Origin: Escherichia coli
GTDB lineage: Bacteria > Pseudomonadota > Gammaproteobacteria > Enterobacterales > Enterobacteriaceae
Reading direction: 5' to 3' (one strand)
Length of the DNA stretch: 64,000 nt
Assembly (NCBI RefSeq): GCF_011045215.1
Contig: NZ_CP049201.1
Shown: one piece after another, positions 2,020 through 52,781 of the stretch
Layout of the letters: every line of letters starts with the position of its first letter
How positions within the stretch are numbered: position 1 is the stretch's first letter
Notes under the pieces: generated by a model
Seen by the model: the letters and a program-made list of their open reading frames with translations, nothing else
What the model was told of the DNA's origin: nothing
Database searches by the model: none
Position numbers and translations under genes: made by a program

Positions 2020-2165
2020 CCGCTTGTCTTCCTGAGCCGACTCCCTATAATGCGCCTCCATCGACACGGCGGATGTGAATCACTTCACACAAACAGCCGG
2101 TTCGGTTGAAGAGAAAAATCCTGAAATTCAGGGTTGACTCTGAAAGAGGAAAGCGTAATATACGC
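2020..2165 (+). promoter_or_regulatory. rrn tandem promoters P1 and P2 with AT-rich upstream region
   Basis: TTGTCT (2025-2030) with TATAAT (2046-2051), and TTGACT (2134-2139) with TAATAT (2156-2161, 16-bp spacer), both upstream of the 16S gene; AT-rich tract upstream of P1. Confidence 0.6.
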
Positions 2166-2201
2166 CACCTCGCGACAGTGAGCTGAAAGCCGCGTCGCAA
2201 C

Positions 2202-2214
2202 TGCTCTTTAACAA
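2202..2214 (+). promoter_or_regulatory. boxA antitermination element in the rrn leader
   Basis: TGCTCTTTAACAA matches the rrn boxA consensus in the leader upstream of the 16S gene. Confidence 0.7.
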
Positions 2215-2345
2215 TTTATCAGACAATCTGTGTGGGCACTCGAAGATACGGATTCTTAACGTCGCAAGACGAAAAATGAATACCAAGTCTCAAGAGTGAA
2301 CACGTAATTCATTACGAAGTTTAATTCTTTGAGCATCAAACTTTT

Positions 2346-3887
<1,542 letters not shown>

Positions 3888-9455: not shown

Positions 9456-9644
9456 TTTTGCTCCTGTTGCAAAATAGAAGAGATATTTTGAATTTATTTG
9501 TCATTAAACCATCAGGATGCGTGATATGTCATCCGATTTAATGTTCTCAATAATGAGCAAAATTCTGACCGGTGTAAGCACTTGCTTACATAACAATATA
9601 CAATTGCTCGTTGAAAGAGTGAGCTAAAATCCCTATAACAGTAG

Positions 9645-15725: not shown

Positions 15726-15802
15726 GGAGCGGTAGTTCAGTCGGTTAGAATACCTGCCTGTCACGCAGGGGGTCGCGGGTTCGAGTCCCGTCCGTTCCGC
15801 CA
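15726..15802 (+). tRNA. aspV: tRNA-Asp (GTC anticodon); island integration hotspot
   Basis: Sequence identical to the aspU copy at 7502..7578; followed by a terminator hairpin; foreign DNA begins immediately downstream. Confidence 0.95.
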
Positions 15803-30300: not shown

Positions 30301-31556
30301 CGGAAGTTATCGGTCAAACGAGATGAGTCAAAAACAAAATCGTTGCCGTTTGTGTTAACGGAAAGCACGCCGTCTCCGGTTAATTTGTTCAGAAAACGCC
30401 AGCGCTGAGATGTCTCTATGGACAGCGTGCCGCCGTTAAGCAATACCGTGTTGGCGCCAATATTTTTTGGGTCCGTTATTAAGAGGCGGGCCGGAGAGTC
30501 GATAGAAAAATAGCCATGAAAATTCGAGTTATCACCGGCAAGCGCGGATAGGCCGTTCAACATATTGACGCGGCCCTTGCCACTCAAATTCGCCGACAGA
30601 GAAAATAAAGCGCTGGCATGATTAAATGTCAGAACGCCTTCCCTGAAGCCGAAAATAATCTCTTTGGTATTAATATTTCCGGCGGCGACAGCCTGCTCGC
30701 CGGCCCTTGCTCCAACGGCAAGCTCTCCTTTCCTGCCTCCTTTGGAAATGATAATTTCTCTGGCGCTTAGCAGGCCATTATCGGAGGCGATCGCTGTGGC
30801 TGTTCCATCCCAACCTACAATAAGCGTCGCGTCCGTCGAGATGACAGAGCCGGCCCCGGCTACCTGAAGCAGATTATCATAGCCGGCAGTTTCCAGCTGA
30901 TTCCCGACCTGAATATTCGCGTCAGCATGCGTCTTACCGCCATTAGTGGTTATCAGCGTGCCTGACCCATAGGTCCCGACTATAATTCTGCTTGCGGTTG
31001 CTAACTCACTTCCCGGACCATCAACATAGATACGTCCTGAGGTCGTAGATGACGGCGTTCTTCGGCTACCTATCCATATCCCGCTCCAGGTATTGTCCGA
31101 GCCGTGATGAAATAACTTTCCTCCCTGAGTAATATTTACCACGCCGCTTCCGTTTCCCATACCAACCTGTAAAGAACGATTTTTTTTGTCAATCGTAACT
31201 ATACTTCCTGGTCCGCTAATATTCAGTACCCCATAGCCATCAGGATTTTTTGAATCTGACTTACCGCCAACCAGTAAAGGATCGGTGTAAGTAGATTTGA
31301 TAATGTTCAGTCTGCCACCATCCGTTATATTGACGGTGCCTGTGGAGCCGTGTATCCCTATTTGAAAAAGCTCAGCTTGAACATAACCACCATTAGAAAT
31401 ATTAAGGGTGCCGTCAGTCTCATCACCAATAAAAATCCACGGTTCTTCCCATAATGAATCTATCTTTAACGCTTGGTTATCATTAATGGTTGCAGCTGGT
31501 GCACCGGTTGCACACATTGATGTGATAATAGCGATGAATAATTTACTTACTTTCAT
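27345..31556 (-). CDS. Type Va autotransporter (AIDA-I-like adhesin family, 1403 aa)
   Basis: N-terminal signal peptide, long Gly/Thr/Asn-rich beta-helical repeat passenger (repeated ...GG.L...G... units), C-terminal beta-barrel translocator ending ...VLGIRVTF with a terminal aromatic residue. Confidence 0.85.
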   Translation of the reverse strand: MKVSKLFIAIITSMCATGAPAATINDNQALKIDSLWEEPWIFIGDETDGTLNISNGGYVQAELFQIGIHGSTGTVNITDGGRLNIIKSTYTDPLLVGGKSDSKNPDGYGVLNISGPGSIVTIDKKNRSLQVGMGNGSGVVNITQGGKLFHHGSDNTWSGIWIGSRRTPSSTTSGRIYVDGPGSELATASRIIVGTYGSGTLITTNGGKTHADANIQVGNQLETAGYDNLLQVAGAGSVISTDATLIVGWDGTATAIASDNGLLSAREIIISKGGRKGELAVGARAGEQAVAAGNINTKEIIFGFREGVLTFNHASALFSLSANLSGKGRVNMLNGLSALAGDNSNFHGYFSIDSPARLLITDPKNIGANTVLLNGGTLSIETSQRWRFLNKLTGDGVLSVNTNGNDFVFDSSRLTDNFRGTVALQDTAFSLAETNAAALKDLSMKMGSGSLVKVGEGRQTLGGLTFEGGTLLVGEVNPGQKTSPATVHTTGQLDISGQGTVQVTRGTTFSNDRPMPDTLIPLLEQDESNILVRLVSSDGGVIGHGGNLTLTDQNAHVISDTAEADITQHGAVVANATYDYRLTRGDRDDGLYVNYALTNVDLMDKEADALILNANGKGGNAADLSATLTGDGDLAIDSQKGQTVTLSNLNNDYRGVTNVRSGNLAMLNDNVLGNTRELKLAGDTGFDMRGHSQTIATLTAENGSLTHLNGGQLTLTNGGKASGVLAGNGQLNVAGGTLSISGNNPELQATTAIMQGAKVVLDHTLGAGTGNIVAAGTLSVRYAAGRLYNSLSDAGQVELIDSDVVLAGTNRAFSGQFTVNTGSQMTALTADSLGAAEVHNSGSLVLNGDNNWRLDNTVYGSGRVIKLGTGTIALGDNAAWTGQTDIKQGGLLLGNNASPATLASSQVDIAQPGMLAGIGGVAGNINNAGTLQVGAHHEENHRFTVGGDLINSGLLATGFKGHQAGNQLVINGNYTGRKGYLTINTALGDDHSVTDELVVKGDTHGETTVSVVNAGGTGAQTLNGIEVIHVDGHSDGEFIQAGRIVAGAYDYSLGRGQGENSGNWYLTSGKTNPDPAPTPDRHDDLRPEAGSYIANLAAANTLFVTRLRDRQGETHYIDTLTGKEAITSLWLRNAGGHTHQQDSSGLLGMQANRNVTQLGGDIFEWSSDSADRFRLGLMAGYANQKTRAENQLNGYRADSRISGYSIGLYGTWLQTPEGAYVDTWAQYNWFDNTVSGRGVGVEAYESKGFTASLESGYTWKLARTGERNALYIQPQAQITWMGVRADDHQEANGTRVKGQGDGNVQTRIGVRLFGKGHSQLDEGMARTFQPFIEANWLHNSKEFGVSMNGDNINLAGTRDVGELKAGVEGQLSKYVSLWGTIGQQVGDKGYSDTAAVLGIRVTF

Positions 31557-36798: not shown

Positions 36799-37665
36799 CT
36801 AAGCGAGGTTCTGGTTTTCAAATTGTTCCGGACTGAGGCCGCCACACCAACTGTGCCGCCGCCACCGATTGTAATCACATTCGATATAATTAAACACCGT
36901 TGCCCGCATTATTTCCCGGCTGATAAAGTGTTCTCCATGGATACATTCCACTTTCAGCGAATGAAAGAAGCTTTCCACGCAGGCATTATCGTAGCAGCAA
37001 CCTTTTGCGCTCATACTTCCACGCAGATTATGCCGCTTCAGTTGCGCCTGATAATCTGCTGAACAGTACTGGCCTCCACGGTCCGTGTGAACGATAACGT
37101 TCCGGGGCCTCTTACGCCGCCACAGCGCCATCTGCAGGGCATCGCAGGCCAGTTGCGCCGTCATGCGTGGCGACATTGACCAGCCAATAACGGCACGTGA
37201 CCACAGGTCAATGACCACTGCCAGATACAGCCAGCCTTCATCTGTACGTAAGTACGTGATGTCTCCTGCCCACTTCTGGTTCGGGCCACTGGCGTAAAAA
37301 TCCTGCTCCAACAGATTTTCTGACACAGGCAGGCCGTGTGCGCGGTAGCTGACCGGGCTGAACTTCCGGGAGGCCTTTGCCCTCAGTCCCTGACGGCGCA
37401 GGCTTGCCGCCACGGTTTTTACGTTAAAGGGGTAACCCTGAGCACGCAGTTCATCCGTCAGGCGTGGGGCACCGTAACGCTGTTTTGACCGGGTAAAAGC
37501 CGCGAGGACAACGCTGTCGCAGTGTTGGCGGAACTGCTGACGCGTGCTTATCCTTGTCCGCCGCTGACACCACGTATACCAGCCGCTGCGGGCCACCCGG
37601 AGCACGCGGCACATTGCTTTGATGCTGAACTCAGCCTGATGTTTTTCAATAAAGACATACTTCAT
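36799..37665 (-). CDS. insF: IS3 transposase OrfB (DDE integrase-type catalytic domain)
   Basis: 288-aa ORF with DDE-domain residues (...WAGDITYL..., ...[10 protein letters not shown]...) inside the IS3 element. Confidence 0.9.
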
Positions 37666-37970
37666 TTCAGGCGCTTCGCGAAGTATGTCGCGGCCTTTTG
37701 GAGGATAGCCAGCTCTTCATCCCGTTCTGCCAGCTGGCGTTTGAGACGTGCAATCTCGGTAGACATCTCCAGTTCACGTTCAGAAGACGTCTGCTGATTT
37801 TGCTGTTTACTGCGCCAGTTGTAGAGCTGTGATTCATACAGGCTGAGTTCACGGGCTGCGGCAGTAACACCGATGCGTTCAGCAAGCTTCAGGGCTTCAC
37901 TGCGAAATTCAGGCGAATGCTGTTTACGGGGTTTTTTACTGGTTGATACTGTTTTTGTCATGTGAGTCAC
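37662..37970 (-). CDS. insE: IS3 transposase OrfA (HTH protein)
   Basis: 102-aa [55 protein letters not shown]... inside the IS3 element. Confidence 0.9.
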
Positions 37971-38589: not shown

Positions 38590-38906
38590 GAATTGGAAAG
38601 GAGCTTTCCTTTCAGGCTGCTTTAACTTCGGTAAAATACGTTCTTGAAGCACCAGATAATAAAGTCGGTAATATTGCCACTATTGAGTTTTTCATCAAGG
38701 TTAATTACGAGAATAACCCTTCTGATAAAGCTGAAGTTGAGAAGGTGCTTAATGAATCAGAACTGAAGAATGCTCTTAAGTCCAGAATTCTTGATGATAC
38801 TGTCAGGCAACACAGATGATTAAATCATCTGGATGTATTTAATGCATAAACATTTCTGAATGATACATAAAAATTGTATTTAATGTTTCCCTCCTGGAGA
38901 ATCTCT

Positions 38907-39191
38907 ATGCCCACAGCAGCCAGACTCAGCGATAAAGGCACCCAGCATGACGGTTATTATGAGACCACCATTATTGCAGGCTCCTCCACCGTCTTTATTG
39001 ATGGTATGCCCGCCGCCCGTCAGGGCGATCCGCTGACACCGCATTCCAAACCTGACCATCCCCCTCACCCCCGTAAAATCGCAGGCGGCTCTGCCACTGT
39101 CTTTATTGACGGTAAACCTGCCGCCAGAACCGGCGATGCCATTGACTGTGGCGGCGTGGTTATCGGTGGCGGCACGGTAAATATAGGCTGA
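38907..39191 (+). CDS. PAAR-domain protein (T6SS spike tip)
   Basis: 94-aa protein with PAAR repeats (DGMPAARQGDP, DGKPAARTGDAIDCGG); start placed at the internal Met preceded by GGAGA; immediately upstream of vgrG. Confidence 0.85.
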   Translation: MPTAARLSDKGTQHDGYYETTIIAGSSTVFIDGMPAARQGDPLTPHSKPDHPPHPRKIAGGSATVFIDGKPAARTGDAIDCGGVVIGGGTVNIG

Positions 39192-39211
39192 TTAATTATC
39201 AGGGAGGCTGT

Positions 39212-41611
39212 ATGCCCTCAGAAGGATTACGTTTCACGCTGTCGGTGGACGGTATCGTGGAGATGGCGACGGCGGTGGTGAGCTTCCGTCTGTACCAGCA
39301 CCACTGCACGCCGTTCATCCTGGATGTGGATATCGCCAGCGGGCTGTCTGACCTGACGGCGGAGGATTTTCTGGAGAAGAGCGCGGTGCTGACGGTCTGG
39401 CAGGGTGATATCCCGCAGCGTTACGTCAGCGGTATCGTGACGGAGGTGCAACTGGGGGAGAACAACGACTGGCAGATGCGTTATTCCCTGAGCATCAGCC
39501 CGCCGCTGTGGCGGGCAGGGTTACGGCAGAACTTCCGTATCTTCCAGCAGCAGGACATCCAGACGATATCAGCACAGCTTCTGAGAGAGAACGGAGTGAC
39601 GGCATGGATGCCGCTGTTTTATGAAGACCATCCGGCGCGGGAGTTCTGTGTGCAGTACGGGGAAAGCGACCTGGCGTTTCTGGCGCGGCTGTGGGCGGAG
39701 GAGGGGATTTTCTTCTTTGAGCGGTTTGCGGCGGACAGTCCGGAGCAGAAGCTGACGCTGTGCGACGATGTGGCGGGGCTGTCACAGGCGGGAGAGCTTC
39801 CGTTTAACCCGGACACATCGGCAGGAGCGGAGACGGAGTGTCTCAGTACGTTCCGTTATGAGGCGCATGTCCGCCCGTCGTCGGTGCAGAGTCAGGATTA
39901 CACGTTTAAGGTGCCGGACTGGCCGGGGATGTATGAGCAGCAGGGTGAGAACCTGAACGGACAGCTGGCGCAGTACGAGATATTTGATTATCCGGGAAGG
40001 TTCAAGGATGAGCAGCACGGCAAGGATTTCACGCTGTACCAGATGGACAGCCTGCGCAGTGATGCGGAAAAGGCCACAGGGCAGAGTAATTCACCGAAGC
40101 TGTGGCCGGGAACGCGGTTTACGCTGACGGGGCATCCGCAGAAGATGCTGAACCGTGAATGGCAGGTGGTACAGAGCATACTGTCAGGAAGCCAGCCGCA
40201 GGCGCTGCACGGCAGCCAGGGGAGGGGAACCACGCTGGGAAATCAGTTAGAGGTGATACCGGCAGACCGGACGTGGCGTCCACGGCTGCAAAGCAAACCG
40301 AAGGTGGACGGGCCGCAGAGTGCCATTGTGACCGGGCCGAAGGGTGAGGAGATATTCTGCGACGAACATGGCCGGGTACGGGTGAAGTTCCACTGGGACC
40401 GTTATCACGGGATGACGGAGGCGAGTTCATGCTGGGTGCGGGTATCGCAGGCGTGGGCGGGGCCGGGGTTCGGTAACCTGGCGATACCGCGGGTGGGCCA
40501 GGAGGTGATTGTTGACTTCCTGAACGGCGACCCGGACCAGCCCATCGTCACGGGACGGACCTACCATGAAGATAACCGCTCCCCGGGCGACCTGCCGGGA
40601 ACGAAGACGCAGATGACGATACGGTCGAAGACCTATAAAGAAAGCGGATTTAACGAGTTGCGGTTTGAAGACGCCACCAGTAATGAGCAGGTGTATATCC
40701 ACGCGCAGAAGAACATGGATACGGAGGTGCTCAACGACCGGACAACGGATGTGAAGCATGACCATACGGAGACCATTGGTAACGACCAGAAGATAACGGT
40801 GGTGAAGGGGCAGACGGTTGAGGTCGGGACCAGAAAAGAAGGAGGCCACGACCAGAGTATCACGGTGGCGAACGACCGGAGCATAACGGTACGTAACGAC
40901 CAGACGCTGAAGGTGACAAATGACCGGACGGTGAGCGTGAGTCACGATGACGGTCTGTACGTCAGAAATGACCGTAGGGTGACGGTGAAAGGGAAGCAGG
41001 AGCATAAGACGACGGGTAACCACATCAGCCTGGTGGAGGGGAAGCACAGCCTGGAGGTGAAGGGGGACCTGGCGGAGAAGGTGAGTGGCGCGCTGGGGAT
41101 AGAAGTGGACGGGGATATCGTGCTGGAGAGCAGCAGCCGGATAAGCCTGAAGGTGGGTGGCTCGTTTATCGTCATTCAGCCGGGCGGAGTGGATATTGCC
41201 GGGCCGAAGATAAACCTGAACGGTGGGGGCAGTGCGGGGACACCGGTGGGGACGATGCAGCCGGCGGTGCTGGAGGCTCCGGAGGATGAGAGCAGTGATG
41301 ATGGCAGTGATGACTCCGGAGAGGATAGTGGCAATCCCGCAGGGAGTGACGGAGGAGGTGATGGCGGTGACGATGAAGATGATCCTGAAAAATATACCCT
41401 CCAGTTCCATTTTACGGACGATGACGGGATACCGTATTCAGAGACGCAGTATATTGCCTTTTTTGAGGATGGCACACAGACGCGTGGTGAAACAGACAGA
41501 GAGGGATATACAGAAATATTTTATACAGATACAGCACAGGAAATTAAAGTCCAATTGTTATTTTCGGATGCTTTTTATATTGAGCCGGAGGGGCATTATG
41601 GCAGGGAATAA
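39212..41611 (+). CDS. vgrG: Type VI secretion spike protein VgrG (799 aa) with an acidic linker and a small C-terminal extension domain
   Basis: Gp27-like N-terminal region, gp5-like OB-fold and beta-helix (WAGPGFGNLAIPRVGQEVIVDFLNGDPDQPIVTGRTYHEDNR; repeated ...NDRT/ITV... units), then an Asp/Glu/Gly/Ser-rich linker and a roughly 70-aa C-terminal domain. Confidence 0.92.
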   Translation: MPSEGLRFTLSVDGIVEMATAVVSFRLYQHHCTPFILDVDIASGLSDLTAEDFLEKSAVLTVWQGDIPQRYVSGIVTEVQLGENNDWQMRYSLSISPPLWRAGLRQNFRIFQQQDIQTISAQLLRENGVTAWMPLFYEDHPAREFCVQYGESDLAFLARLWAEEGIFFFERFAADSPEQKLTLCDDVAGLSQAGELPFNPDTSAGAETECLSTFRYEAHVRPSSVQSQDYTFKVPDWPGMYEQQGENLNGQLAQYEIFDYPGRFKDEQHGKDFTLYQMDSLRSDAEKATGQSNSPKLWPGTRFTLTGHPQKMLNREWQVVQSILSGSQPQALHGSQGRGTTLGNQLEVIPADRTWRPRLQSKPKVDGPQSAIVTGPKGEEIFCDEHGRVRVKFHWDRYHGMTEASSCWVRVSQAWAGPGFGNLAIPRVGQEVIVDFLNGDPDQPIVTGRTYHEDNRSPGDLPGTKTQMTIRSKTYKESGFNELRFEDATSNEQVYIHAQKNMDTEVLNDRTTDVKHDHTETIGNDQKITVVKGQTVEVGTRKEGGHDQSITVANDRSITVRNDQTLKVTNDRTVSVSHDDGLYVRNDRRVTVKGKQEHKTTGNHISLVEGKHSLEVKGDLAEKVSGALGIEVDGDIVLESSSRISLKVGGSFIVIQPGGVDIAGPKINLNGGGSAGTPVGTMQPAVLEAPEDESSDDGSDDSGEDSGNPAGSDGGGDGGDDEDDPEKYTLQFHFTDDDGIPYSETQYIAFFEDGTQTRGETDREGYTEIFYTDTAQEIKVQLLFSDAFYIEPEGHYGRE

Positions 41612-42401
41612 TAATACTAGTGGGACTTCACAACCCGAGTCGCAAGTATGTGTAGTACCGCAAAAAATTACAAATAAATTTAAAATAATGATGAGTAAGG
41701 CTTGTAAAGCACAGAAAATGGTTTTATTGAAAAGAGCAGATGATATTATGTCATGGGAGGGGGAACAACAACGAGATTTTATTAAAGTTTTTGGCCTTAA
41801 AGGCGAGGACATTATAAAAATCAGAAAGGTTGGGGAAGATACTGGGAAACGAATGCAAGCGAGACTATTCATAATGGATGGCATCAGACAAATAATGACG
41901 ATTGCAAATGGTTTGACGATCGAAAGCTATAAAGATTATACGAACTGCAATGAATTTGCTGCTTTTATTAGTCCACATCTTGATCCTCCTTACATTGTAA
42001 ATATCGGAGCGCATTTTGAATACAGACATGGTATAAAACAGTCGGTTACAGGTAGAGACTCTCATGTAAGTACACTTTGCCATGAAATGTCCCATATATT
42101 TTGGTATTGGGGTGACAATCAAAAAGGTGGTATGTGGACTCAGGATTATACGGGTATTAATAAGTTCGCAACAAGTAATAAGGATGAAGTTAGCTATGAG
42201 AAACATGTTTCAGTGGCTAATGATCTGGTTACATTGCGTAAAGATCAGTTATTTGAGAATGCATATAATGTTGAAAGATATTTTTATATAAAATTAAATG
42301 ATGAAGATATTGAAGCTCAAGATGAGAATATGTTAGCAAAAAAAGTAGAGGATAAAATAAAAGAGATAGAAAAATGTTTTGATGAGTTGATGGGGAAATA
42401 A
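41598..42401 (+). CDS. Putative T6SS effector: uncharacterised protein with an HExxH zinc-metallopeptidase-like motif (267 aa)
   Basis: Start ATG lies within the last 14 nt of vgrG (translational coupling); contains CHEMSHIFWYWGDNQKGGMWTQDYTG (HExxH followed by conserved Asp residues); abrupt drop in GC content relative to vgrG; followed by a secreted-protein gene. Confidence 0.6.
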   Translation: MAGNNNTSGTSQPESQVCVVPQKITNKFKIMMSKACKAQKMVLLKRADDIMSWEGEQQRDFIKVFGLKGEDIIKIRKVGEDTGKRMQARLFIMDGIRQIMTIANGLTIESYKDYTNCNEFAAFISPHLDPPYIVNIGAHFEYRHGIKQSVTGRDSHVSTLCHEMSHIFWYWGDNQKGGMWTQDYTGINKFATSNKDEVSYEKHVSVANDLVTLRKDQLFENAYNVERYFYIKLNDEDIEAQDENMLAKKVEDKIKEIEKCFDELMGK

Positions 42402-42402
42402 G

Positions 42403-43242
42403 ATGAAGAGGTTGGCTTTCTATAATCTAAATTATGTTGTACTGATGGTTTTTTTTCTTTGTTTTTTGCCATTATCTATTGCAATTGCAATAGATAATGA
42501 GAATCTTTTTGTAAAAAAATACAGATTCGGTTTTGAACGAAGAAATGACAATGGGAAACCAATTATTTATCTTAGCCATAATTTAGCGCCAGAGGAAAAT
42601 ATAAGTAATGAATTAACAAATGATGTTGTTGTTAAATTGGTGGTTAAGCCACATGCTGAAAATATTTTAGCTACTATAACTTTTTATAACAGTAGTACTA
42701 AATCGTATTTTCTCCCCAGAATATATTATCCAAAGAACTTCCAAAAAGGAAATGGAGATGTATTTGATGCTTTGTGTGATGACGAATTCTTGATTACATC
42801 AGGAAATATTAGCTTAGACTATCTAGGAGGCTTTTGTCCCTTTGAGCTTGATTTGAATTTGAGCCGATGGGTGGAAATTACGGCAGGTAAAAAAATATCT
42901 TTTGATGTAAAATTGAATGATATGCATTCATTTCTCCCCAGTTTAAATAATTATCATATAAAAACATTAAACTACAAACTTGTTAGGAGAAAATGGTTTG
43001 TATTAAAATCAATTAATGAAACATTCCTCTCTATTTTGATGAAAAGATACTCATGTAATGAATATGATTTTAGAGCTATATCATTTAGTGGAGAGGGATG
43101 TGATAATTATGAATTTGATAAAAATACGTTTTTTTTTGTTAATCAAATATTAGATAAAGATGATGAGCAACATTCTGTTCATATTAGGTCTAATGAATTT
43201 TCCATCAATATCGATGGAAGCTTGGTAAAGCAACCTTATTGA
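42403..43242 (+). CDS. Putative cognate immunity protein (279 aa, N-terminal signal peptide or membrane anchor)
   Basis: Begins 1 nt after the effector stop; hydrophobic N-terminus (VVLMVFFLCFLPLSIAIAI) suggests periplasmic localisation; AT-rich like the effector gene. Confidence 0.5.
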   Translation: MKRLAFYNLNYVVLMVFFLCFLPLSIAIAIDNENLFVKKYRFGFERRNDNGKPIIYLSHNLAPEENISNELTNDVVVKLVVKPHAENILATITFYNSSTKSYFLPRIYYPKNFQKGNGDVFDALCDDEFLITSGNISLDYLGGFCPFELDLNLSRWVEITAGKKISFDVKLNDMHSFLPSLNNYHIKTLNYKLVRRKWFVLKSINETFLSILMKRYSCNEYDFRAISFSGEGCDNYEFDKNTFFFVNQILDKDDEQHSVHIRSNEFSINIDGSLVKQPY

Positions 43243-43304
43243 TTAAAATGTATCGCAGGTTTTATTTTCTGTAATGCTGGTGCATGTGCGTAAATATTTC
43301 TTAA

Positions 43305-43730
43305 GAGCCGGAAACACCTCTTCCGCCTTTATCGACGATAAACCTACCGCCAGAACCGGTGATGCCATTGACTGCGGTGGCGTGGTTAAAGGTGGAGGGC
43401 GATGTGGTGCTGGAGAGCAGCAGCCGGATAAGCCTGAAGGTGGGCGGCTCGTTTGTGGTCATCCATTCAGGGGGCGTGGACATCGTCGGGCCGAAAATCA
43501 ATCTCAATAGCGGCGGTAGTCCGGGAACGCCGGTGCCGACGCTGCAACCGGCGGTTCTGAAAGCGCTGGCAGATGATAAAAGTTTAGCGGCTGAGCAAAA
43601 TGATAGTAATGCATCGTCCGATCAGAATGATAACAACGATGAGGGTGAGGAAGCGCCAGAAAAATCGGTGTGTAAGGAGTGCCTGAAAAGGGCGCAAGAA
43701 GCCGCCGCCGTTTTTGCGCCTCGTGGATAA
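43305..43730 (+). pseudogene. PAAR-vgrG deletion-fusion remnant (3' end of a PAAR gene joined to the 3' end of a second vgrG)
   Basis: 43309..43392 closely matches the PAAR 3' end at 39092..39175 (...FIDDKPTARTGDAIDCGGVV...); from about 43393 the sequence matches vgrG at about 41110..41245 (VLESSSRISLKVGGSF.V.....GGVDI.GPKINLN.GG) and then continues into a different C-terminal tail. Confidence 0.8.
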
Positions 43731-43736
43731 GGGAGA

Positions 43737-44506
43737 ATGACAATGATAACAGTATCGCCACACGCTACCGATCAAGACAAATATATTATCTGGCTGAAGC
43801 AAGCTGAATCATTCTGTTCTGCCGCTGGTTTGGATTACATAGATGTGCTTGTTGACCAGGCTGGAACCGACCAACCTTTGCAAAATGATATGCTTCATCT
43901 GTCGCCAGCCATTCACTGGTATGCCCTGTTTGAAGGAACGCCTGAAGCTGAGACGATGGAGTATTCCCCTGTAGTGTTACGCCTGTACTTTGCGCTCAGT
44001 AGCCATCGCAAATTTCTGGCACAACTGATGGCGTCATTTGCTGATACGCCGCGTCTTACTTTGTTGATATCCCCTCTTACATTCGACCTGCTGGGCGGCA
44101 TCTTCAGGTATTGTCACAGGTTCAGTGGGAAGAACAGACCGGATTGCTGCGTTACTATGATAATCGGGTGTTCCCTTTACTGTTCACACATGTTTTGACT
44201 AACGAGCAGCAGGCGACATTTACTGATATTGCGTTGTTCTGGAGCTGGTTAGACCGTGATGGTGAGATTAACTGGAAATCAGGAAGTTTTTCACCAGAAC
44301 GCAGGCTTACTGACAACCCGGAGATGAATCGGGTGGATGATGTACAGGTGGGATTGATGGGCTGTATCTGCGACGCTGAAGTCCTGATGAAGGAGAAAGC
44401 AGTCAGTGAACTCAGTCAGGAAAGCTATTTTGCCCACTGTCTTGATATTGCTTTCAGGGCCAATGACGCGAAATATTTCGGAGCTTTGCGGGACTTCGAA
44501 GGATAA
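43737..44506 (+). pseudogene. T6SS adaptor/chaperone-like gene (DUF4123-type, Tap/Tec family), split across two overlapping reading frames
   Basis: Two overlapping ORFs (43737..44198 and 44111..44506) together span about 256 codons, in the adaptor position between a vgrG 3' end and a DUF2235 effector gene; family assignment is by position and recalled sequence character. Confidence 0.5.
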
Positions 44507-44819
44507 TATTGTGGTGATGTACGGGGAGATTTATCTGTTTAAAAGTCCGTAGCTGTTAATATCAAGAGATAATCGTGAAATAAACGGAAAATCAAGCTCG
44601 ACATGTAATGGTAGTATCCATCATGTTGCATTTGTGTTCGATCGTAATGTCAGTTCACTTGGCTGCAATATATTTTGCGTAATATCATCAATGCTCTGTC
44701 GATATTCCAATGTGTGACAATCGAAAGATATGCATTTTATTTGCTTCTATGTCAAAACTTTATTGTCGTAGAAACAATACCCATCAATTAAAATCTCTCA
44801 AAGTAAAAGAACCAGCAAC

Positions 44820-45362
44820 ATGTCCAGCAAAATAAGAAATGGAATGAATATAACAAAAGTAGTTAAAGGCTGTCTGGTATTAATTTTGATGGTGATTTCT
44901 GGTTGCTCAGCAGATAATTACGACGATTATACTGCAGGTGATCTCCGGGCAATAAATCATATTAAAGGTATCAGTATTAATTGGTTCACCGTAAATGGTT
45001 ATCGGGTCCATGGTTTGGGCGGTGGATATTGCTGCATAATGTTACCAAAGAAGTGGCATTCTGGATTAAAAGCCCGGATCGAGTGGGAAGTAGACCCGAC
45101 CCCCCTTGAACCTATTGCAATGAAAAAAGAAGGTTTTGGCTATGAAGAAGATGCTTATGCTAAACATGCTGCAAATTATCAAAAATATAAAGTAATTGTT
45201 GACATCCCGGAATACGGCGCTGAACGTTGTGGCCTGACCGTTCATTTTCTGCCGTGTAATCAGATTAAAGTGACAACCGTCTGCGAGGGCTATGGCACAC
45301 CGAATTATCCTATCAAAGAACCCCGCGAGATGAAGGAACCTGCAACATGTCCAGCAAAATAA
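44820..45362 (+). CDS. Lipoprotein (180 aa), candidate Tle1-associated immunity or accessory protein (DUF3304-like)
   Basis: Signal peptide with lipobox (LILMVISGCSADN); directly upstream of and overlapping the Tle1-like gene. Confidence 0.55.
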   Translation: MSSKIRNGMNITKVVKGCLVLILMVISGCSADNYDDYTAGDLRAINHIKGISINWFTVNGYRVHGLGGGYCCIMLPKKWHSGLKARIEWEVDPTPLEPIAMKKEGFGYEEDAYAKHAANYQKYKVIVDIPEYGAERCGLTVHFLPCNQIKVTTVCEGYGTPNYPIKEPREMKEPATCPAK

Positions 45363-47440
45363 GTGGTCTGGCTTTTCCGTGTTATGCCCCCCCGGTGTTC
45401 CCTGAAGATGGGCGATTAATATTATCTGAAGCGCAGGTAAACGCGAACTACCTAAAACAAATCAATAAAACAGAAGAGCACAAAACCAACTGTAGTAAAC
45501 AGGCTGGATTTAGAATTGGCTTTACGTGTAATCAAAGTATGCATATTAGTCTGTTTTTTGATGGTACAAATAATAATGAATATAATGACACTCCTGGACA
45601 CCCAACCAATATTGCCAAACTGTTTCATACGACCTATCAGAACGCAGAAGAACAGGGATATTTTAACTACTATATACCGGGTGTAGGCACACCATTTCCC
45701 AAGATAGGTGAAATGGATTACAGCAACAGCGGGCTGGAGTTCGCTACTGGTGGTGAAGATCGAATTAATTGGGCATTATTACGCCTCGTGGATGCCCTGA
45801 GCTATTCCATTGACCCTTCCCATAAGCGACTGGATGATAATGTGGCAAAAGAGCACATTCCTCTTATGCGCGCTCCCTGGCCTATGACTGGTGAAGTGAA
45901 TCGTCGCAATGTGATTAACCCCTACCTGGAAAAATTACAGGGACTGTTAGAGCAAGCCAGTCCGCGCCTGCTAAACGTAAAGCTGTTTATCTACGGATTT
46001 TCCCGTGGCGCAGCGGAAGCACGAACTTTTGTTAACTGGTTGACTCAGTTAGCTTGCCCGCAGGAGCAACAGGTGATGCTGGCCGGGTTAGCTGTCAGTA
46101 TTGAGTTTTTGGGGCTGCTGGATACCGTAGCTTCTGTGGGGGCGGCGCATGTTTTACCGGGCGCTGCCGGTCATATGGGATGGGCCGATAGTACTCAGCA
46201 ACTCCCTGATGAGAGGCAGTTTCCCGGCCTGATTAAATGCTGCCGCCACTTCGTTGCCGCGCATGAGCAGCGGCTGTGCTTTCCGCTGGATTCAATCCGT
46301 CGTCCAGACGGAAATTATCCTTTAAATGCAGAGGAAATTATCTATCCGGGGATGCACTCTGATGTCGGTGGTGGCTATCCCGTTCGCGATCAGGGGAAGT
46401 CCTGTGGTGACTCAGGCGAAATTCTTTCTCAGATAGCACTGCATGATATGTATCTTGCTGCATTTGATTCAGGAGCACCACTTGCTGTTTATTCTAAATT
46501 TGTTACTCCATTAATAAAAGGTGTGTCGCCTCTGCGAATTATGAGTCCTTCTAGCGTAAAGGAATTTACGATTGCTAATTCATTAACAAAACGCTTCAAC
46601 ATCTGGCGACAAACGCTGCTGAACACCACCTTGCAGGGTACAGAAGAAATGATTGATACGAGGGAAGGTTATCACTCCTATCAACTTGCCCAGGTTCTTG
46701 AAAGCGCAATTAGCGATCAGATCGGCTGGATCACCGCCTGGCGTATCGGTCGCTATGCGAATAACAGCCTTCTTGTGCAACCTTTTTATATTAAGGCGCC
46801 ACAGCTGGATAAAGATGGACTTGATAAAGAGGCTAAAGCGCGTAAAGAACAAATGGAAAATATTGAAAAAGAGCGGGCGAACAAGCAGAAAGGGAATGGC
46901 ACACTTGATGAAAGTAATCAGGGCATTCCTATCCTTGACCCAACCAATGCTCAGTATCAGTTGCGAGAGGCAGCCCGAGAATTTCAGAGCGATTATAAAG
47001 GATGGACGCGCGATATTAACGGCAGCGTCATGGAGAAAGCCATTCAGATTCTTGTGGATGTCATTCCTAAATATCCGGTGTATCTGATTAATGGCGATGA
47101 TGAAGCAAAAGAATATCAGCAAATTAAGGCTATGGGAGACGGACTCTATCCACAATTTTTTATTGATTCACTGGGAACGGGAACGCGTACTCAGCCATGC
47201 GCTGAATTACTGGCCCTCTATGATGACCAGGTTCACGACTCCCGCGCCTGGTTTATGCAAAGTTCGCTGGGTGGACGTGAACCCTGGGGCGGTTATTTTC
47301 GCTACCGCATGATTTACTTCGGTGATGAGGCTAATAAAGAGCTGAAGCTAATCTCTGCAGATGGCAAAGTTGTTGGCGATCAGCCCACATCCAACCGGGT
47401 CATTTATTGGATGGAATCGAAAACGGTGAGCCGAGGTTAA
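45347..47440 (+). CDS. Tle1-family T6SS phospholipase effector (DUF2235 alpha/beta-hydrolase, 697 aa)
   Basis: DUF2235 hallmark ISLFFDGTNNNEYND...; nucleophile elbow GxSxG (IYGFSRGAAEAR); vgrG-adaptor-effector gene order. Confidence 0.75.
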   Translation: MSSKISGLAFPCYAPPVFPEDGRLILSEAQVNANYLKQINKTEEHKTNCSKQAGFRIGFTCNQSMHISLFFDGTNNNEYNDTPGHPTNIAKLFHTTYQNAEEQGYFNYYIPGVGTPFPKIGEMDYSNSGLEFATGGEDRINWALLRLVDALSYSIDPSHKRLDDNVAKEHIPLMRAPWPMTGEVNRRNVINPYLEKLQGLLEQASPRLLNVKLFIYGFSRGAAEARTFVNWLTQLACPQEQQVMLAGLAVSIEFLGLLDTVASVGAAHVLPGAAGHMGWADSTQQLPDERQFPGLIKCCRHFVAAHEQRLCFPLDSIRRPDGNYPLNAEEIIYPGMHSDVGGGYPVRDQGKSCGDSGEILSQIALHDMYLAAFDSGAPLAVYSKFVTPLIKGVSPLRIMSPSSVKEFTIANSLTKRFNIWRQTLLNTTLQGTEEMIDTREGYHSYQLAQVLESAISDQIGWITAWRIGRYANNSLLVQPFYIKAPQLDKDGLDKEAKARKEQMENIEKERANKQKGNGTLDESNQGIPILDPTNAQYQLREAAREFQSDYKGWTRDINGSVMEKAIQILVDVIPKYPVYLINGDDEAKEYQQIKAMGDGLYPQFFIDSLGTGTRTQPCAELLALYDDQVHDSRAWFMQSSLGGREPWGGYFRYRMIYFGDEANKELKLISADGKVVGDQPTSNRVIYWMESKTVSRG

Positions 47441-47697
47441 GTTCATAAGATTGAGGGGTTGGTGACCGGGAAAATGTAGACATGTAGTGCCTATTCACCC
47501 CAGTTCAAACCCATCCGCATCCCGCCATGCCGGAAACTTCACACTGTACTCCCAGGGAAAAATCACGTAATGCTGTTTTTTTTGTACTAAATAATTCGCA
47601 TTTTATGTTCAATAATTGAGGTGTTCCTTATTACCTAAAGCTGTTTTTCATTGCTTATACATGATCAAATACTCATTGCATAATTAAGGGGGACAAA

Positions 47698-50480
<2,783 letters not shown>

Positions 50481-50648
50481 CTTACTCTGCAAGGGATGAT
50501 GAAAAGTGCAACTTTATTCCACGCAGCTATTTAGACAGCGTACAGTAAACAAACGAAAGTTGTTATTTCAATGGTCAGGGCAAGAGCATAAAGTGTTTAC
50601 TACACACTATGCTCTTGTCCTGGAGTCAGGTCTTGTTTGGAGGGATAA

Positions 50649-51152
50649 ATGGTAGATATTGTCGAGGCCGATAAAACGGATATTTATTTCATTCAGGAGA
50701 GTGTTTATGGCAAAATCGGGTTGCCAGCTTTTGGTAATACAATAGGACCATCCGCACAGCAGGTTGTTAAAAAGGTATTCGCTGTCGTTAAAGAACGAGA
50801 TAAAACACATGCAAAACAGAGATTATTGTTGGAATATAATGGTAACAAACTCTGGATGAATGCTATTGATGGCAGTGAAGCTATCCTACCAATAGAATTT
50901 TCTAAGCGATACGAACTTTCATTATTCAATACTACTAATTTTGGAGAAGATCCTTTTCCTGATGTTAATTTATATAATAATATGAAATCAAGTTTTTTTG
51001 TAAGGTTTGGTGGAACATCCCATCCCGAGGCTTGGGCTATTTATAATGCAAGTACGAAAGAGGTTAAATATATAGAAACTGCAAGAGAAATTGATAAAAT
51101 ATTCAGTGATTTTAACTTGAGTGGTGCATTGCCAATTCACATTGGTCAATGA
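50649..51152 (+). CDS. Hypothetical protein (167 aa), AT-rich
   Basis: ORF only; no recognised motif. Confidence 0.35.
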   Translation: MVDIVEADKTDIYFIQESVYGKIGLPAFGNTIGPSAQQVVKKVFAVVKERDKTHAKQRLLLEYNGNKLWMNAIDGSEAILPIEFSKRYELSLFNTTNFGEDPFPDVNLYNNMKSSFFVRFGGTSHPEAWAIYNASTKEVKYIETAREIDKIFSDFNLSGALPIHIGQ

Positions 51153-51218
51153 TTTTTTAAATTGTGTGATTAAATAATTGAACATTAATGATGATTTATA
51201 GCATCATTATTCTATAAC

Positions 51219-51731
51219 ATGAATAAACGGATTGAATGTGTTATGTTAAAAATGAGTTTATACGTAATAATATTGTTATTTTCCTTTCAGATTAGTGCAG
51301 CCATTACTAGCAAGGAAAGTGAGGTTGTTTCACCATTATTAATGGATGTTAATTCTTCACTAACAATGGAAAATATTTCTGAATTATCCACATCATCGGA
51401 ACCATCGCAACAGGGGGTATTTCCTGTAATATGTACTCGACTTCATCCTGGTTCCGTAATGAAACGCCAGTTATTAACCGGCTGGGGGCCTGTTTTTATA
51501 ATTGGTGATGATCCTTTTTCTCTGCGCTGGATGAGTGAACATCTGGAGATCCTTAAATCGCTAAATGCCCTTGGTTTGGTTGTTAATGTTGAATCAGTAG
51601 AACGAATGGAGGTATTACAGCAGCGGGCTGATGGGTTATTGTTATTGCCAGTTATCTGCGATAATTTCGTGCAAACTCTGCAATTAAATGCTTATCCGGT
51701 ATTAATCACAGAGATGGAAATATCACAATGA
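51219..51731 (+). CDS. Hypothetical protein (170 aa) with a probable N-terminal signal peptide, AT-rich
   Basis: Hydrophobic N-terminus (LKMSLYVIILLFSFQISAA); no recognised motif. Confidence 0.35.
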   Translation: MNKRIECVMLKMSLYVIILLFSFQISAAITSKESEVVSPLLMDVNSSLTMENISELSTSSEPSQQGVFPVICTRLHPGSVMKRQLLTGWGPVFIIGDDPFSLRWMSEHLEILKSLNALGLVVNVESVERMEVLQQRADGLLLLPVICDNFVQTLQLNAYPVLITEMEISQ

Positions 51732-51754
51732 TTAATAACATAATTACTGCAAAT

Positions 51755-51945
51755 AATATTGTAATTTTGAAAATGGTAATCCTGTTCACGACACCATAAT
51801 TAGAGTTATGTCTTGTATCCGTTCAGTATAATTTCACGAGTGCTTTATTAACTGGATGCGTGACTGCCATTCATCAAATGACAAAGACGTCATCGCGATT
51901 GATGGAAAAGCACTTCCACACTCCTATGATAAAAGTGGTCGCAGG
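51755..51945 (+). pseudogene. Internal fragment of an ISAs1-family (H-repeat) transposase gene (yafF-like remnant)
   Basis: Translates to FENGNPVHDTIIRVMSCI...[39 protein letters not shown], matching ISAs1 transposase codons about 55-118; lies next to yafV, where K-12 carries an H-repeat pseudogene. Confidence 0.7.
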
Positions 51946-52004
51946 AGAGCGGGCTTTCGTAGTCTTCCCCGACTCTCCCCAGCCCTAAACACAACCCCCA
52001 CTCA

Positions 52005-52781
52005 CTACAACCTAAACTCATCCGCATCCCGCCATGCCGGAAACTTATCGCGATATTCCCTTAACACCGCCATCGACAGCTCCGCATCAATGCGCGTTGC
52101 CTGATGCGCGTCGGCAGTAGCGATAATCTCGCCTTGCGGATTAATCACCCGGCTGTCACCGCGATAATGGCAGCCGTTGCCATCGCTGCCGACGCGATTG
52201 CATCCCGCCACATACGCCTGATTCTCAATCGCGCGGGCCGTCAGCAATGCCTGCCAGTGCAGAGAGCGCGGAGCAGGCCAGTTGGCGACGTACAGGGCGA
52301 GGTCATAATCGTTGAGATTGCGCGACCACACAGGAAAACGTAAGTCGTAGCACACCAGCGGCAAAATACGCCAGCCGCGCCATTCCACAATCACTCGCGC
52401 ATTGCCCGATTTATAATGTAGATGCTCATCTGCCATGCGGAACAGATGACGCTTATCATAAAAATGTACCGTGCCGCCCGGCTCAACCAGCAAAAAGCGG
52501 TTAACCGAACCAGACTCCGTTTGTAATGCAACACTGCCTGCAATCAGCGCATTGCACTGCTGCGCTTTAGCTGTCATCCAGTTCACTACGTCATTTTGTG
52601 CTAGCGACGAAGCTGCCGCTTCCATGGCAAAGCCGCTGGTAAACATCTCCGGTAGAACGATCACATCGCGCCCGGTAATACCTTCCAGTTGACGATCAAA
52701 ATGACGCAGGTTGGCAGGACCATCCATCCACACCAGTGGTTGCTGCAAAAGCGTAATCTTCAAACCAGGCACGGTGTACAA
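52005..52781 (-). CDS. yafV: Carbon-nitrogen hydrolase family protein (omega-amidase)
   Basis: 258-aa ORF with nitrilase-superfamily features (..VIVLPEMF.., ..LVCYDLRFP..) in the conserved position upstream of ivy. Confidence 0.88.

What the first reader, a model, noticed from the sequence alone, without database searches (positions are those of the whole stretch)
50649..51731. Two AT-rich hypothetical genes caught between IS fragments
ORFs of 167 aa and 170 aa (the second with a probable signal peptide) have much lower GC content than the flanking sequence and lie between ISAs1 remnants. They may be IS-delivered cargo; I could not assign a function.
Basis: seen in the sequence. Interest (0 to 1): 0.35.

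Follow-up and report, generated by a model that had tools for sequence, protein, structure and literature searches.

The report
Candidate T6SS toxin pair, not IS cargo
Two real, conserved E. coli genes at the far end of a type VI secretion cargo island look like an undescribed small-toxin family member paired with a periplasmic protein borrowed from conjugative elements; the insertion sequences around them are bystanders.

Summary
ORF1 (50649-51152, 167 aa) and ORF2 (51219-51731; likely true start 51243, 162 aa, signal peptide) lie in a 35% GC block between an ISAs1 copy, itself split by IS100, and a 220-bp ISAs1 fragment beside yafV.

The "IS-delivered cargo" reading is not supported. The pair sits at one fixed chromosomal site in about 550 of 5,426 complete E. 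coli genomes, while the ISAs1 copies vary in position.

Both genes are under purifying selection (dN/dS 0.13-0.59) across three alleles.

ORF1 belongs to a sparse, unannotated ~190-aa family with no Pfam, NCBIfam or PDB match. In three other lineages its relatives sit next to hcp or tssBC or inside a T6SS cluster. Elsewhere they form orphan modules with an overlapping 4-TM protein. This is the signature of a small T6SS effector with a membrane immunity protein.

ORF2 is a bona fide DUF2859/TIGR03765 protein, a redox-inactive thioredoxin fold normally found in MPF_G conjugation systems. Here it stands alone.

Best reading (about 0.4): a T6SS effector-family protein plus a co-opted periplasmic immunity or partner.

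Caveats: E. coli ORF1 lacks about 30 family residues, nothing is tested experimentally, and this strain has lost the adjacent T6SS-1 core.

The parts
50649..51152 (+). ORF1, 167 aa, soluble, no signal peptide. Short-form member of an unannotated ~190-aa family linked to T6SS genes; candidate small cargo effector. GGAGGG Shine-Dalgarno lies 4 nt upstream of the ATG.
51243..51731 (+). ORF2, 162 aa from the conserved start (the longest ORF starts at 51219, 170 aa). Sec-type signal peptide, a disordered Ser/Glu-rich linker of about 40 aa, then a DUF2859/TIGR03765 domain (residues 59-170 of the 170-aa form, about nt 51393-51728). The domain has a thioredoxin-like fold without CxxC.
50484..50648 (+). 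Spacer between the right end of ISAs1 copy A and ORF1. Contains a strong hairpin at 50576-50622 (21-nt arms, centroid -30.7 kcal/mol, z = -4.1), 26 nt before the ORF1 ATG. Role unknown.
47579..48275 (+). ISAs1-family element copy A, left part (transposase pseudogene; 312-bp internal deletion relative to an intact copy).
48276..50229 (-). IS100 (IS21 family; istA 49121-50143, istB 48342-49124) inserted into ISAs1 copy A, with a 5-bp target duplication. Specific to this strain lineage: absent from L001, L021 and L031.
50230..50483 (+). ISAs1 copy A, right part, ending in GCGGGCTTTCGTAATCTT.
51755..51975 (+). ISAs1 fragment B: an internal ~200 bp joined to the IS terminus. Equivalent to the K-12 yafF pseudogene position.
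38874..47440 (+). Upstream T6SS cargo genes. PAAR 38874-39191; VgrG 39212-41611; M35-like 41598-42401; hypothetical 42403-43242; VgrG C-terminal fragment 43359-43730; Tla1 chaperone, frameshifted, 43737-44506; Tli1a immunity 44820-45362; Tle1 phospholipase 45347-47440.
52005..52781 (-). yafV, the core gene that marks the fixed right-hand boundary of the island. A degenerate 64-nt copy of its 3' end lies at 47490-47553.

Best explanation
ORF1 and ORF2 form a resident two-gene module at the yafV-proximal end of the E. coli aspV-yafV type VI secretion (T6SS-1) cargo region.

ORF1 is a short-form member of an undescribed family of small, soluble proteins of about 19-22 kDa. I infer these are T6SS cargo effectors, small enough to travel in the Hcp tube. 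Their biochemical activity is unknown. In the rest of the family the gene is followed, usually with overlapping stop and start codons, by a fast-evolving 4-TM inner-membrane protein and often a DUF805-like membrane protein. I read these as the immunity components.

In Escherichia that membrane partner is absent. ORF1 is paired instead with ORF2, a Sec-exported, redox-inactive thioredoxin-fold protein of the DUF2859/TIGR03765 family. This family is otherwise a periplasmic component of MPF_G conjugation systems. I infer that ORF2 was co-opted as the periplasmic partner of ORF1, most likely its immunity protein.

The ISAs1 copies and the IS100 are later insertions and recombination anchors, not the vehicle.

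Shown: the coding status of both genes, the family assignments, the T6SS linkage of the ORF1 family, the pair's fixed location, and co-retention of the pair across deep allelic divergence.

Inferred: secretion, toxicity, and the immunity role of ORF2.

In this particular strain the adjacent T6SS-1 structural genes are missing. Here the pair can act only through another T6SS, or ORF2 can act only defensively.
For: T6SS linkage of the ORF1 family:
- The homolog P0029 (40% identity) starts 15 bp after an orphan hcp.
- P0038 follows tssB-tssC directly, inside a T6SS cluster. It heads an array of signal-peptide proteins plus a small protein I judged amidase-like by eye only.
- The Rahnella homolog lies between hcp genes at the edge of a T6SS cluster.
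- In E. coli the pair always follows VgrG-linked effector modules: Tle1/Tli1, Cpe1/Cpi1, or PAAR-like toxins.

Module anatomy typical of effector-immunity pairs:
- In 7 lineages the ORF1-like gene is followed by a 135-157-aa protein, in 5 of them with overlapping stop and start. Most of these proteins have 4 predicted TM segments.
- These partners are only 20-28% identical to one another, whereas the ORF1-like proteins are 24-43% identical.

Horizontal-transfer signature:
- The genes are 10-18 GC points below their host locus in 9 of 9 lineages.
- The dS of the pair is discordant with that of neighbouring yafV.

The pair behaves as a unit:
- Three alleles keep the short ORF1 plus DUF2859 arrangement at dS 0.4-0.56, with dN/dS 0.32 and 0.34.
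- In the lineage of about 200 genomes where the sampled member (L019) has no T6SS genes in the flanks examined, ORF1 is deleted. ORF2 there carries a frameshift and two stop codons.

ORF2 properties:
- It has a signal peptide and a confident thioredoxin-like domain (pLDDT above 90).
- It has GDDPFS in the position where I expect the CxxC motif.
- No other ICE gene is nearby.
Against: - No experiment shows secretion, toxicity or neutralisation.
- E. coli ORF1 lacks a stretch of about 30 residues conserved in all other family members, and it lacks the canonical 4-TM partner. It may be an inactivated or repurposed derivative.
- ORF1 and ORF2 are separated by 66-90 bp rather than translationally coupled.
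- No DUF2859 protein is known to be an immunity protein, and I found no literature on the function of this family.
- ORF2 decays where ORF1 and the T6SS are lost, instead of persisting as an orphan immunity gene. This is one evolutionary event only.
- Most ORF1-family loci (8 of 12 lineages) have no T6SS gene within the fetched flanks.
- In the window strain the T6SS-1 core is absent and the Tla1 gene is frameshifted.
Confidence: 0.4

Rival explanations
1. Decaying leftovers. ORF1 is a truncated remnant of an effector that has lost its membrane immunity gene. ORF2 is a stray fragment of a long-gone conjugative element. Neither has a function, and they persist by hitch-hiking in an IS-ridden island end.
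For: - ORF1 lacks about 30 family residues and the 4-TM partner.
- The neighbourhood is full of pseudogenes and IS elements: ISAs1 twice, IS100, and a frameshifted Tla1.
- The pair is deleted or pseudogenised in about 200 genomes.
- K-12 lacks it altogether.
- ORF2 dN/dS reaches 0.5-0.6 within allele 1/3.
Against: - Both ORFs stay open across three alleles that differ by dS 0.4-0.56. dN/dS is 0.32 and 0.34, and 0.13-0.26 for ORF1 among closer alleles.
- The main clusters hold 762 and 899 full-length member sequences.
- ORF2 keeps all 21 family-invariant residues.
- True decay is visible for comparison in the L019 lineage.
Confidence: 0.22
2. A functional pair that is not toxin and immunity. 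ORF2 would be a periplasmic thioredoxin-fold chaperone or assembly factor, as TraF is in F-type conjugation (from my own knowledge). ORF1 would be a cytoplasmic accessory or regulator serving the T6SS or envelope biology.
For: - ORF2 has a thioredoxin-like fold without CxxC, and in its native context it sits within a T4SS assembly operon.
- ORF1 has no recognisable toxin motif or fold.
- Both genes are under purifying selection.
Against: - Elsewhere the ORF1 family is paired with fast-evolving membrane proteins in orphan two- or three-gene modules scattered among housekeeping genes. This is the pattern of effector-immunity cassettes, not of machine accessories.
- ORF2 has lost the N-terminal LNVIADLGG...FEAINRQ motif conserved in the ICE proteins.
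Confidence: 0.18
3. One reading: passenger genes moved and delivered by ISAs1, acting as a composite transposon or IS cargo.
For: - ISAs1 sequences in direct orientation lie on both sides of the pair.
- An intact ISAs1 sits upstream in L031 and downstream in L012.
- The block is AT-rich relative to its flanks.
Against: - The pair occupies a single chromosomal site next to yafV in 758 genomes. Of 3 'plasmid' places, the one examined (in the separate PLSDB collection) is a 4.9-Mb mislabelled chromosome.
- The position of ISAs1 relative to the pair differs between alleles.
- Copy B is a 220-bp fragment.
- ORF1-family modules in nine other lineages are equally AT-rich and not flanked by ISAs1.
- The block is instead bracketed by a degenerate duplicate of the yafV 3' end. 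This points to recombination at the island boundary.
Confidence: 0.05

Closest known systems
Small Hcp-linked T6SS cargo effector with membrane immunity, e.g. Ssp6-Sip6 of Serratia marcescens (PMC6889166)
   Same: - A small soluble protein encoded with an overlapping downstream membrane-protein gene.
- Found either as orphan cassettes among housekeeping genes, or next to orphan hcp, or between tssC and hcp inside clusters.
- Mostly enterobacterial.
- No predictable activity from sequence.
   Different: - Ssp6-like genes are about 650-690 bp (216-228 aa) with a 67-aa, 2-TM immunity protein. ORF1 relatives are 163-217 aa (ORF1 itself 167 aa) with a 135-157-aa 4-TM partner, with or without DUF805.
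- The Ssp6 homologue list contains no Morganella and no E. coli entry.
- Direct sequence comparison was not possible, because no Ssp6 sequence was available here.
- In E. coli the partner is a soluble periplasmic protein, not a membrane protein.
PFL_4695 / TIGR03765 / DUF2859 proteins of MPF_G conjugative elements (e.g. pEB102, WP_013199777)
   Same: - ORF2 scores far above both curated cut-offs.
- It has the same signal-peptide, linker and 105-aa domain architecture.
- It keeps all invariant residues.
- It is 30-44% identical over the domain.
   Different: - ORF2 stands alone. There is no TIGR03759, lytic transglycosylase, TraD or TIGR03747 neighbour.
- It lacks the conserved N-terminal ADLGG...FEAINRQ motif.
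- It has two lineage-specific cysteines (C72 and C147 in the 170-aa numbering).
- It is 37% GC.
- It is paired with a T6SS-linked gene.
Tle1-Tli1-Tla1 module of E. coli T6SS-1 (encoded just upstream)
   Same: - Same island.
- The same logic of a cargo effector plus a periplasm-facing immunity protein.
- Shuffled as a module between strains.
   Different: - Tle1 is a 697-aa VgrG-dependent phospholipase with a dedicated chaperone.
- ORF1 is a 167-aa protein with no recognisable domain and no adaptor.
H-repeat/ISAs1 elements at Rhs and O-antigen loci of E. coli (own knowledge)
   Same: ISAs1-family copies sit at the distal ends of polymorphic-toxin loci and appear to serve as recombination anchors.
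   Different: Here they flank, but do not carry, the gene pair.

Membership tests
DUF2859 / TIGR03765 (PFL_4695 family ICE protein), tested for ORF2 | Profile score above the curated cut-off | tested here: met
   Pfam PF11072: 99.5 bits against a cut-off of 25, E = 2e-28. NCBIfam TIGR03765: 120.6 bits against 59.75, full-length match to profile positions 1-105.
DUF2859 / TIGR03765 (PFL_4695 family ICE protein), tested for ORF2 | Architecture (signal peptide plus C-terminal domain of about 105 aa) and the family-invariant residues | tested here: met
   Alignment with 30 relatives: 21 invariant columns are all kept in ORF2. A single N-terminal hydrophobic segment is present.
DUF2859 / TIGR03765 (PFL_4695 family ICE protein), tested for ORF2 | Encoded within an MPF_G conjugation or ICE gene set (TIGR03759, lytic transglycosylase, TraD, TIGR03747 as neighbours) | tested here: not met
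   The canonical context is seen in pEB102. No such gene lies near ORF2 in the window or in L001, L012, L021 or L031.
T6SS effector-immunity pair | Genetic linkage to T6SS genes (vgrG, hcp, PAAR or core genes) | tested here: met
   The pair follows VgrG cargo modules in all E. coli loci examined. ORF1 homologs lie next to hcp, next to tssBC, and within a Rahnella T6SS cluster. In the window strain itself only PAAR, VgrG and cargo genes remain; there are no core genes.
T6SS effector-immunity pair | Same-strand bicistronic arrangement, with the immunity protein addressed to the compartment where the effector acts | tested here: inconclusive
   The genes are on the same strand with a 66-90-bp gap, and ORF2 has a signal peptide. 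The compartment where ORF1 acts is unknown, and the canonical family partner is a 4-TM protein, not ORF2.
T6SS effector-immunity pair | T6SS-dependent secretion of the effector, and toxicity neutralised by the cognate immunity protein | not testable with these tools
   This requires secretome analysis, toxicity assays and competition assays.
Ssp6-like pore-forming effector family | Protein of about 216-228 aa followed by an overlapping 2-TM immunity ORF of about 67 aa | tested here: not met
   Gene sizes come from Supplementary Data 1 and the text of PMC6889166. They contrast with 163-217 aa and 135-157-aa 4-TM partners here.
Ssp6-like pore-forming effector family | Detectable sequence homology to Ssp6 (SMDB11_4673) | not tested
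ISAs1 composite transposon / IS passenger genes | Two functional IS copies bracketing the cargo, and presence at more than one genomic site | tested here: not met
   Copy A is a pseudogene (additionally split by IS100 in this window) and copy B is a 220-bp fragment. There is one site per genome, always beside yafV.
Known anti-phage defence systems | Match to a PADLOC model | tested here: not met
   There were no hits for ORF1, ORF2, two relatives, or the membrane partners at E <= 0.1.

The most novel reading that the evidence does not exclude
The ORF1 family is a new T6SS antibacterial effector family with a fold not represented in the PDB. In Escherichia its membrane immunity protein has been replaced by a periplasmic thioredoxin-fold protein captured from a conjugation apparatus. 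This would be the first assigned role for a DUF2859 protein and an example of cross-system recruitment of an immunity protein. It would also hint that DUF2859 proteins in ICEs act by binding or neutralising a periplasmic partner.
Probability: 0.3. Interest if true: 0.65.

Novelty: new variant of a known kind. Interest (0 to 1): 0.45.

Why it matters
If the reading is right, about 10% of sequenced E. coli carry an unrecognised interbacterial toxin-immunity pair at the end of T6SS-1. These include ExPEC lineages such as S88. The wider family, found in Serratia, Morganella, Rahnella and soil metagenomes, would add an effector class with a new fold and unknown target.

It would also give the first functional handle on DUF2859/TIGR03765. 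This is a conserved but uncharacterised component of the MPF_G conjugation systems carried by ICEs and plasmids of this family.

If the reading is wrong, the result still corrects the annotation. 'Integrating conjugative element protein' is misleading here, because no ICE is present.

Tried and rejected
- Pfam, NCBIfam, PADLOC, PHROGs and PDB sequence searches with ORF1 and with 17 family members gave no meaningful hit.
- The genome-contig scan failed with the 18-sequence alignment because no block was conserved enough. With a 6-sequence alignment it returned only 4 loci, from Morganella and Serratia. Context statistics therefore rest on about 12 lineages.
- A tblastn search of plasmids with ORF1 found only a mislabelled chromosome and a Salmonella chromosomal fragment. 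ORF1 is therefore not an ICE or plasmid gene.
- Literature searches for DUF2859, TIGR03765, PFL_4695, DUF805 with T6SS, and the RefSeq protein accessions found no functional study.
- I considered whether the thioredoxin-domain, TIGR02270-like and WD40-like genes upstream of allele 2 form one module with the pair. I rejected this because the same trio occurs elsewhere without the pair (L013).
- The promoter and terminator consensus scan was no better than shuffled sequence.
- I considered a lytic-transglycosylase and inhibitor analogy, since DUF2859 follows a lytic transglycosylase in ICEs. There is no structural support for ORF1 being such an enzyme.
Full report
**1. Observation**

The block between the IS sequences (50496-51765) is 35.0% GC. 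The window is 49.1%, vgrG 57.8% and yafV 54.6%.

ORF1 has a GGAGGG Shine-Dalgarno four bases before its ATG.

ORF2 has one N-terminal hydrophobic segment ending in ISA/A. The first eight codons of the 170-aa ORF are not conserved in a second allele, and RefSeq starts the gene at the internal Met. The likely product is therefore 162 aa, starting at 51243.

**2. The IS frame**

I compared the window with three related loci.
- ISAs1 copy A is 47579-48275 plus 50230-50483.
- It is interrupted by a 1,954-bp element that is 99.9% identical to IS100, with 29-nt terminal inverted repeats and a 5-bp target duplication.
- It carries a 312-bp internal deletion relative to an intact ISAs1.
- Fragment B (51755-51975) is an internal ~200 bp joined to the IS terminus. 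It corresponds to the position of the K-12 yafF pseudogene.

So 'between ISAs1 remnants' is correct.

**3. Where this is**

- aspV lies at 15726-15802.
- yafV, ivy and fadE follow the pair.
- Upstream lie PAAR, VgrG, an M35-like protein, a VgrG C-terminal fragment, Tla1, Tli1a and the phospholipase Tle1.

This is the cargo end of the E. coli aspV-yafV island that carries T6SS-1 in many strains: tssB, tssC and hcp precede vgrG in L001, L012 and L021.

In the window strain the T6SS-1 structural genes are not present. The interval between aspV and PAAR holds a CP4-like element remnant (cbtA/yeeU, radC, an antirestriction gene), an EAL protein, a 1,403-aa autotransporter, regulators and an IS3. 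Tla1 is frameshifted.

**4. Are the genes real?**

Three alleles exist.
- Allele 1: the window, L001 and S88.
- Allele 3: L031. ORF1 is 95% and ORF2 90% identical in amino acids to the window.
- Allele 2: L003 and L012. ORF1 is 67-68% and ORF2 75-76% identical; nucleotide identity is about 80%.

Nei-Gojobori estimates for allele 1 against allele 2 give dS 0.56 and dN/dS 0.32 for ORF1, and dS 0.39 and dN/dS 0.34 for ORF2. Among closer alleles, ORF1 gives 0.13-0.26 and ORF2 0.48-0.59, on small counts. Both genes are therefore under purifying selection, ORF1 more strongly.

The full pair is present in 541 of 5,426 complete genomes, and 12 more carry allele 2.

For contrast, about 200 genomes share one haplotype that shows real decay. 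In the sampled member (L019) an IS630 remnant abuts the locus and no T6SS-1 genes lie nearby. In it ORF1 is deleted, and ORF2 has a 1-bp deletion and two TGG-to-TAG changes.

**5. Not IS cargo**

- The pair has one location per genome, always next to yafV.
- The ISAs1 copies move relative to it. Allele 2 has only a complete copy downstream. Alleles 1 and 3 have a copy upstream, intact in L031, plus the downstream fragment.
- The upstream effector module is exchanged independently: Tle1/Tli1 (window, L001), Cpe1/Cpi1 (S88, L020), or PAAR-like toxins with WD40-like, TIGR02270-like and thioredoxin genes (L012, L031).
- A degenerate 64-nt copy of the yafV 3' end lies just before ISAs1 copy A (47490-47553, against 51997-52060). 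This is a scar of such module exchange.
- Divergence of the pair is decoupled from that of yafV. Between the window and L031, yafV dS is 0.39 but pair dS is about 0.10. Between the window and L012, yafV dS is 0.09 but pair dS is 0.39-0.56.

**6. ORF1**

- The word-indexed search found only Escherichia sequences.
- The exhaustive HMMER search found 30 cluster representatives. They include a set of 163-217-aa proteins at 29-41% identity.
- The alignment has invariant E17, G99, D101, P102, L108 and Y109. It shows that both E. coli alleles lack about 30 residues present in all other members.
- No member hits Pfam, NCBIfam, PADLOC, PHROGs or PDB sequences.
- The AF2 model (pLDDT 83, pTM 0.78) has three long antiparallel strands, a well-ordered loop region carrying the GxDPxP...LY motif, and a C-terminal helix.

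Genomic contexts of the relatives:

| Context | Locus |
|---|---|
| Directly after an orphan hcp (15-bp gap) | L004 |
| Directly after tssB-tssC inside a T6SS cluster; heads a run of signal-peptide proteins plus a small protein I judged amidase-like by eye only | L015 |
| Between hcp genes at the edge of a Rahnella T6SS cluster | L026 |
| Orphan modules among housekeeping genes | L005 (Serratia), L006 (Morganella), L009, L014, L016, L027, L028 |

In the orphan modules the ORF1-like gene is followed, with overlap in five of the seven, by a 135-157-aa protein. Most of these have four predicted TM segments, and a DUF805-like membrane protein often comes next.

The membrane partners are only 20-28% identical to each other. 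The ORF1-like proteins are 24-43% identical.

All nine ORF1-like genes are 10-18 GC points below their host locus.

This combination is the standard signature of a small T6SS cargo effector with a membrane immunity protein. The inference is from context only.

The closest described analogue is the Ssp6-Sip6 family (PMC6889166). Those genes are longer (about 650-690 bp) and have a 67-aa, 2-TM immunity protein. Their homologue list contains no E. coli or Morganella entry. I could not compare sequences directly.

**7. ORF2**

- ORF2 is a clear member of PF11072 (DUF2859) and TIGR03765 (PFL_4695 family).
- Outside Escherichia its relatives are 30-44% identical and sit in MPF_G conjugation gene sets. 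In pEB102 the order is PilL, DUF2275, TIGR03759, lytic transglycosylase, DUF2859, an endonuclease-like gene, TraD, TIGR03747.
- ORF2 keeps all 21 invariant residues of a 31-sequence alignment. It has lost the N-terminal LNVIADLGG...FEAINRQ motif and gained two cysteines conserved in the Escherichia lineage.
- The AF2 model is disordered to residue 65 and confident (pLDDT above 90) for residues 66-170.
- Where I expect the CxxC motif to lie, at the start of the first helix, ORF2 and the whole family have GDDxxS. The domain is therefore presumably redox-inactive.
- No ICE gene accompanies ORF2 in any E. coli locus examined. The RefSeq name 'integrating conjugative element protein' describes ancestry, not context.
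- I found no paper on the function of this family.

**8. Synthesis**

The short ORF1 and the DUF2859 gene have stayed together, intact, at the same island end through allelic divergence deeper than that of the flanking core gene. They decay together where the island is lost.

The ORF1 family is T6SS-linked and cassette-like. The E. coli version has swapped the family's membrane partner for an exported soluble protein.

The most economical reading is a T6SS effector-family protein with a co-opted periplasmic immunity or partner (confidence about 0.4). The rivals are:
- inert remnants (0.22);
- a functional pair that is not toxin and immunity (0.18);
- IS-borne cargo (0.05).

The residual is unassigned.

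The main weaknesses are the 30-residue deletion in E. coli ORF1, the lack of any precedent for DUF2859 as an immunity protein, the absence of experimental data, and the small number of independent contexts. In this particular strain the T6SS-1 core is gone. Here the pair is at best an orphan cargo or immunity locus.

**9. Novelty and score**

T6SS effector-immunity cassettes are a well-known kind. The ORF1 family, if confirmed, would be a new family with a new fold. The DUF2859 partner would be an unusual recruitment. I rate this a new variant of a known kind, interest 0.45. It is a concrete, cheaply testable lead rather than a demonstrated discovery.

Noticed in passing
window 15803-39200: In this strain the T6SS-1 structural genes normally found between aspV and vgrG are absent. 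The interval holds a CP4-like element remnant (cbtA/yeeU, radC, antirestriction, DUF932, IrmA), an EAL protein, a 1,403-aa autotransporter (27345-31556, - strand), wHTH and LuxR regulators, and IS3 (36799-37970). A PAAR gene (38874-39191) then lies directly before vgrG. Homology to T6SS-1-positive strains begins only inside vgrG, at 39325.
   Followed up: partly
window 43737-44506: The Tla1 (DUF4123) chaperone gene for Tle1 is split into two overlapping ORFs (43737-44198 and 44111-44506). In strain A30 it is a single 254-aa gene, so a frameshift is likely here. The Tli1a region 44840-45193 is not alignable with A30 at megablast level.
   Followed up: partly
window 48276-50229: A complete IS100 (IS21 family, 99.9% identical to plasmid copies) is inserted in ISAs1 copy A with a 5-bp target duplication. 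It is absent from all other carriers examined, so it is a recent, strain-specific event.
   Followed up: yes
window 47490-47553 and 51997-52060: A 64-nt direct repeat at 77% identity, with a 33-nt core at about 97%. The second copy is the 3' end of yafV. The first sits between tle1 and ISAs1 copy A, and only in Tle1-type islands. It looks like a scar of module exchange anchored at the island boundary.
   Followed up: partly
window 50576-50622: A unique, strong hairpin with 21-nt arms (centroid -30.7 kcal/mol; z = -4.1 against shuffles) lies 26 nt upstream of the ORF1 start codon. It is conserved in L031. There is no clear U-tract and its role is unknown.
   Followed up: partly
L019 (E. coli M8) 8990-9545, and about 200 similar genomes: A lineage lacking T6SS-1 at this site has a T1SS and a large repeat adhesin plus an IS630 remnant instead. 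It retains only ORF2, with a frameshift and two premature stops. RefSeq annotates the 66-aa tail as a 'PFL_4695 family' protein.
   Followed up: yes
L015 8001-13100 (JGI metagenome contig): Between tssC and impE lies an array. It comprises an ORF1-like gene, a 4-TM gene, several signal-peptide proteins, a 126-aa protein that I judged by eye to resemble a Tae-type amidase (no search was run), and further small ORFs. It resembles an effector-immunity hotspot.
   Followed up: no
L017 5959-6318 (Salmonella Senftenberg NCTC10384 'plasmid 4'): A 119-aa fragment of an ORF1-family gene lies between sseK1 and rpoC. The record is labelled a plasmid but carries thiCEFSGH and rpoBC, so it is probably chromosomal sequence.
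   Followed up: no
L012 11907-14597 and L013 7907-10603: A recurrent trio follows PAAR-like/Tox-GHH2 toxins at two different E. coli loci: a WD40/YVTN-like protein (about 340 aa), a TIGR02270-like HEAT protein (411 aa) and a cytoplasmic CxxC thioredoxin-domain protein (137 aa). This is presumably an immunity or accessory set, and it is independent of the ORF1-ORF2 pair.
   Followed up: partly
L002 (K-12) 1336-3379: K-12 retains only yafT, ykfM, the yafU pseudogene and yafF (the ISAs1 3' end) between aspV and yafV. This is a fully eroded version of the island, without ORF1 or ORF2.
   Followed up: partly
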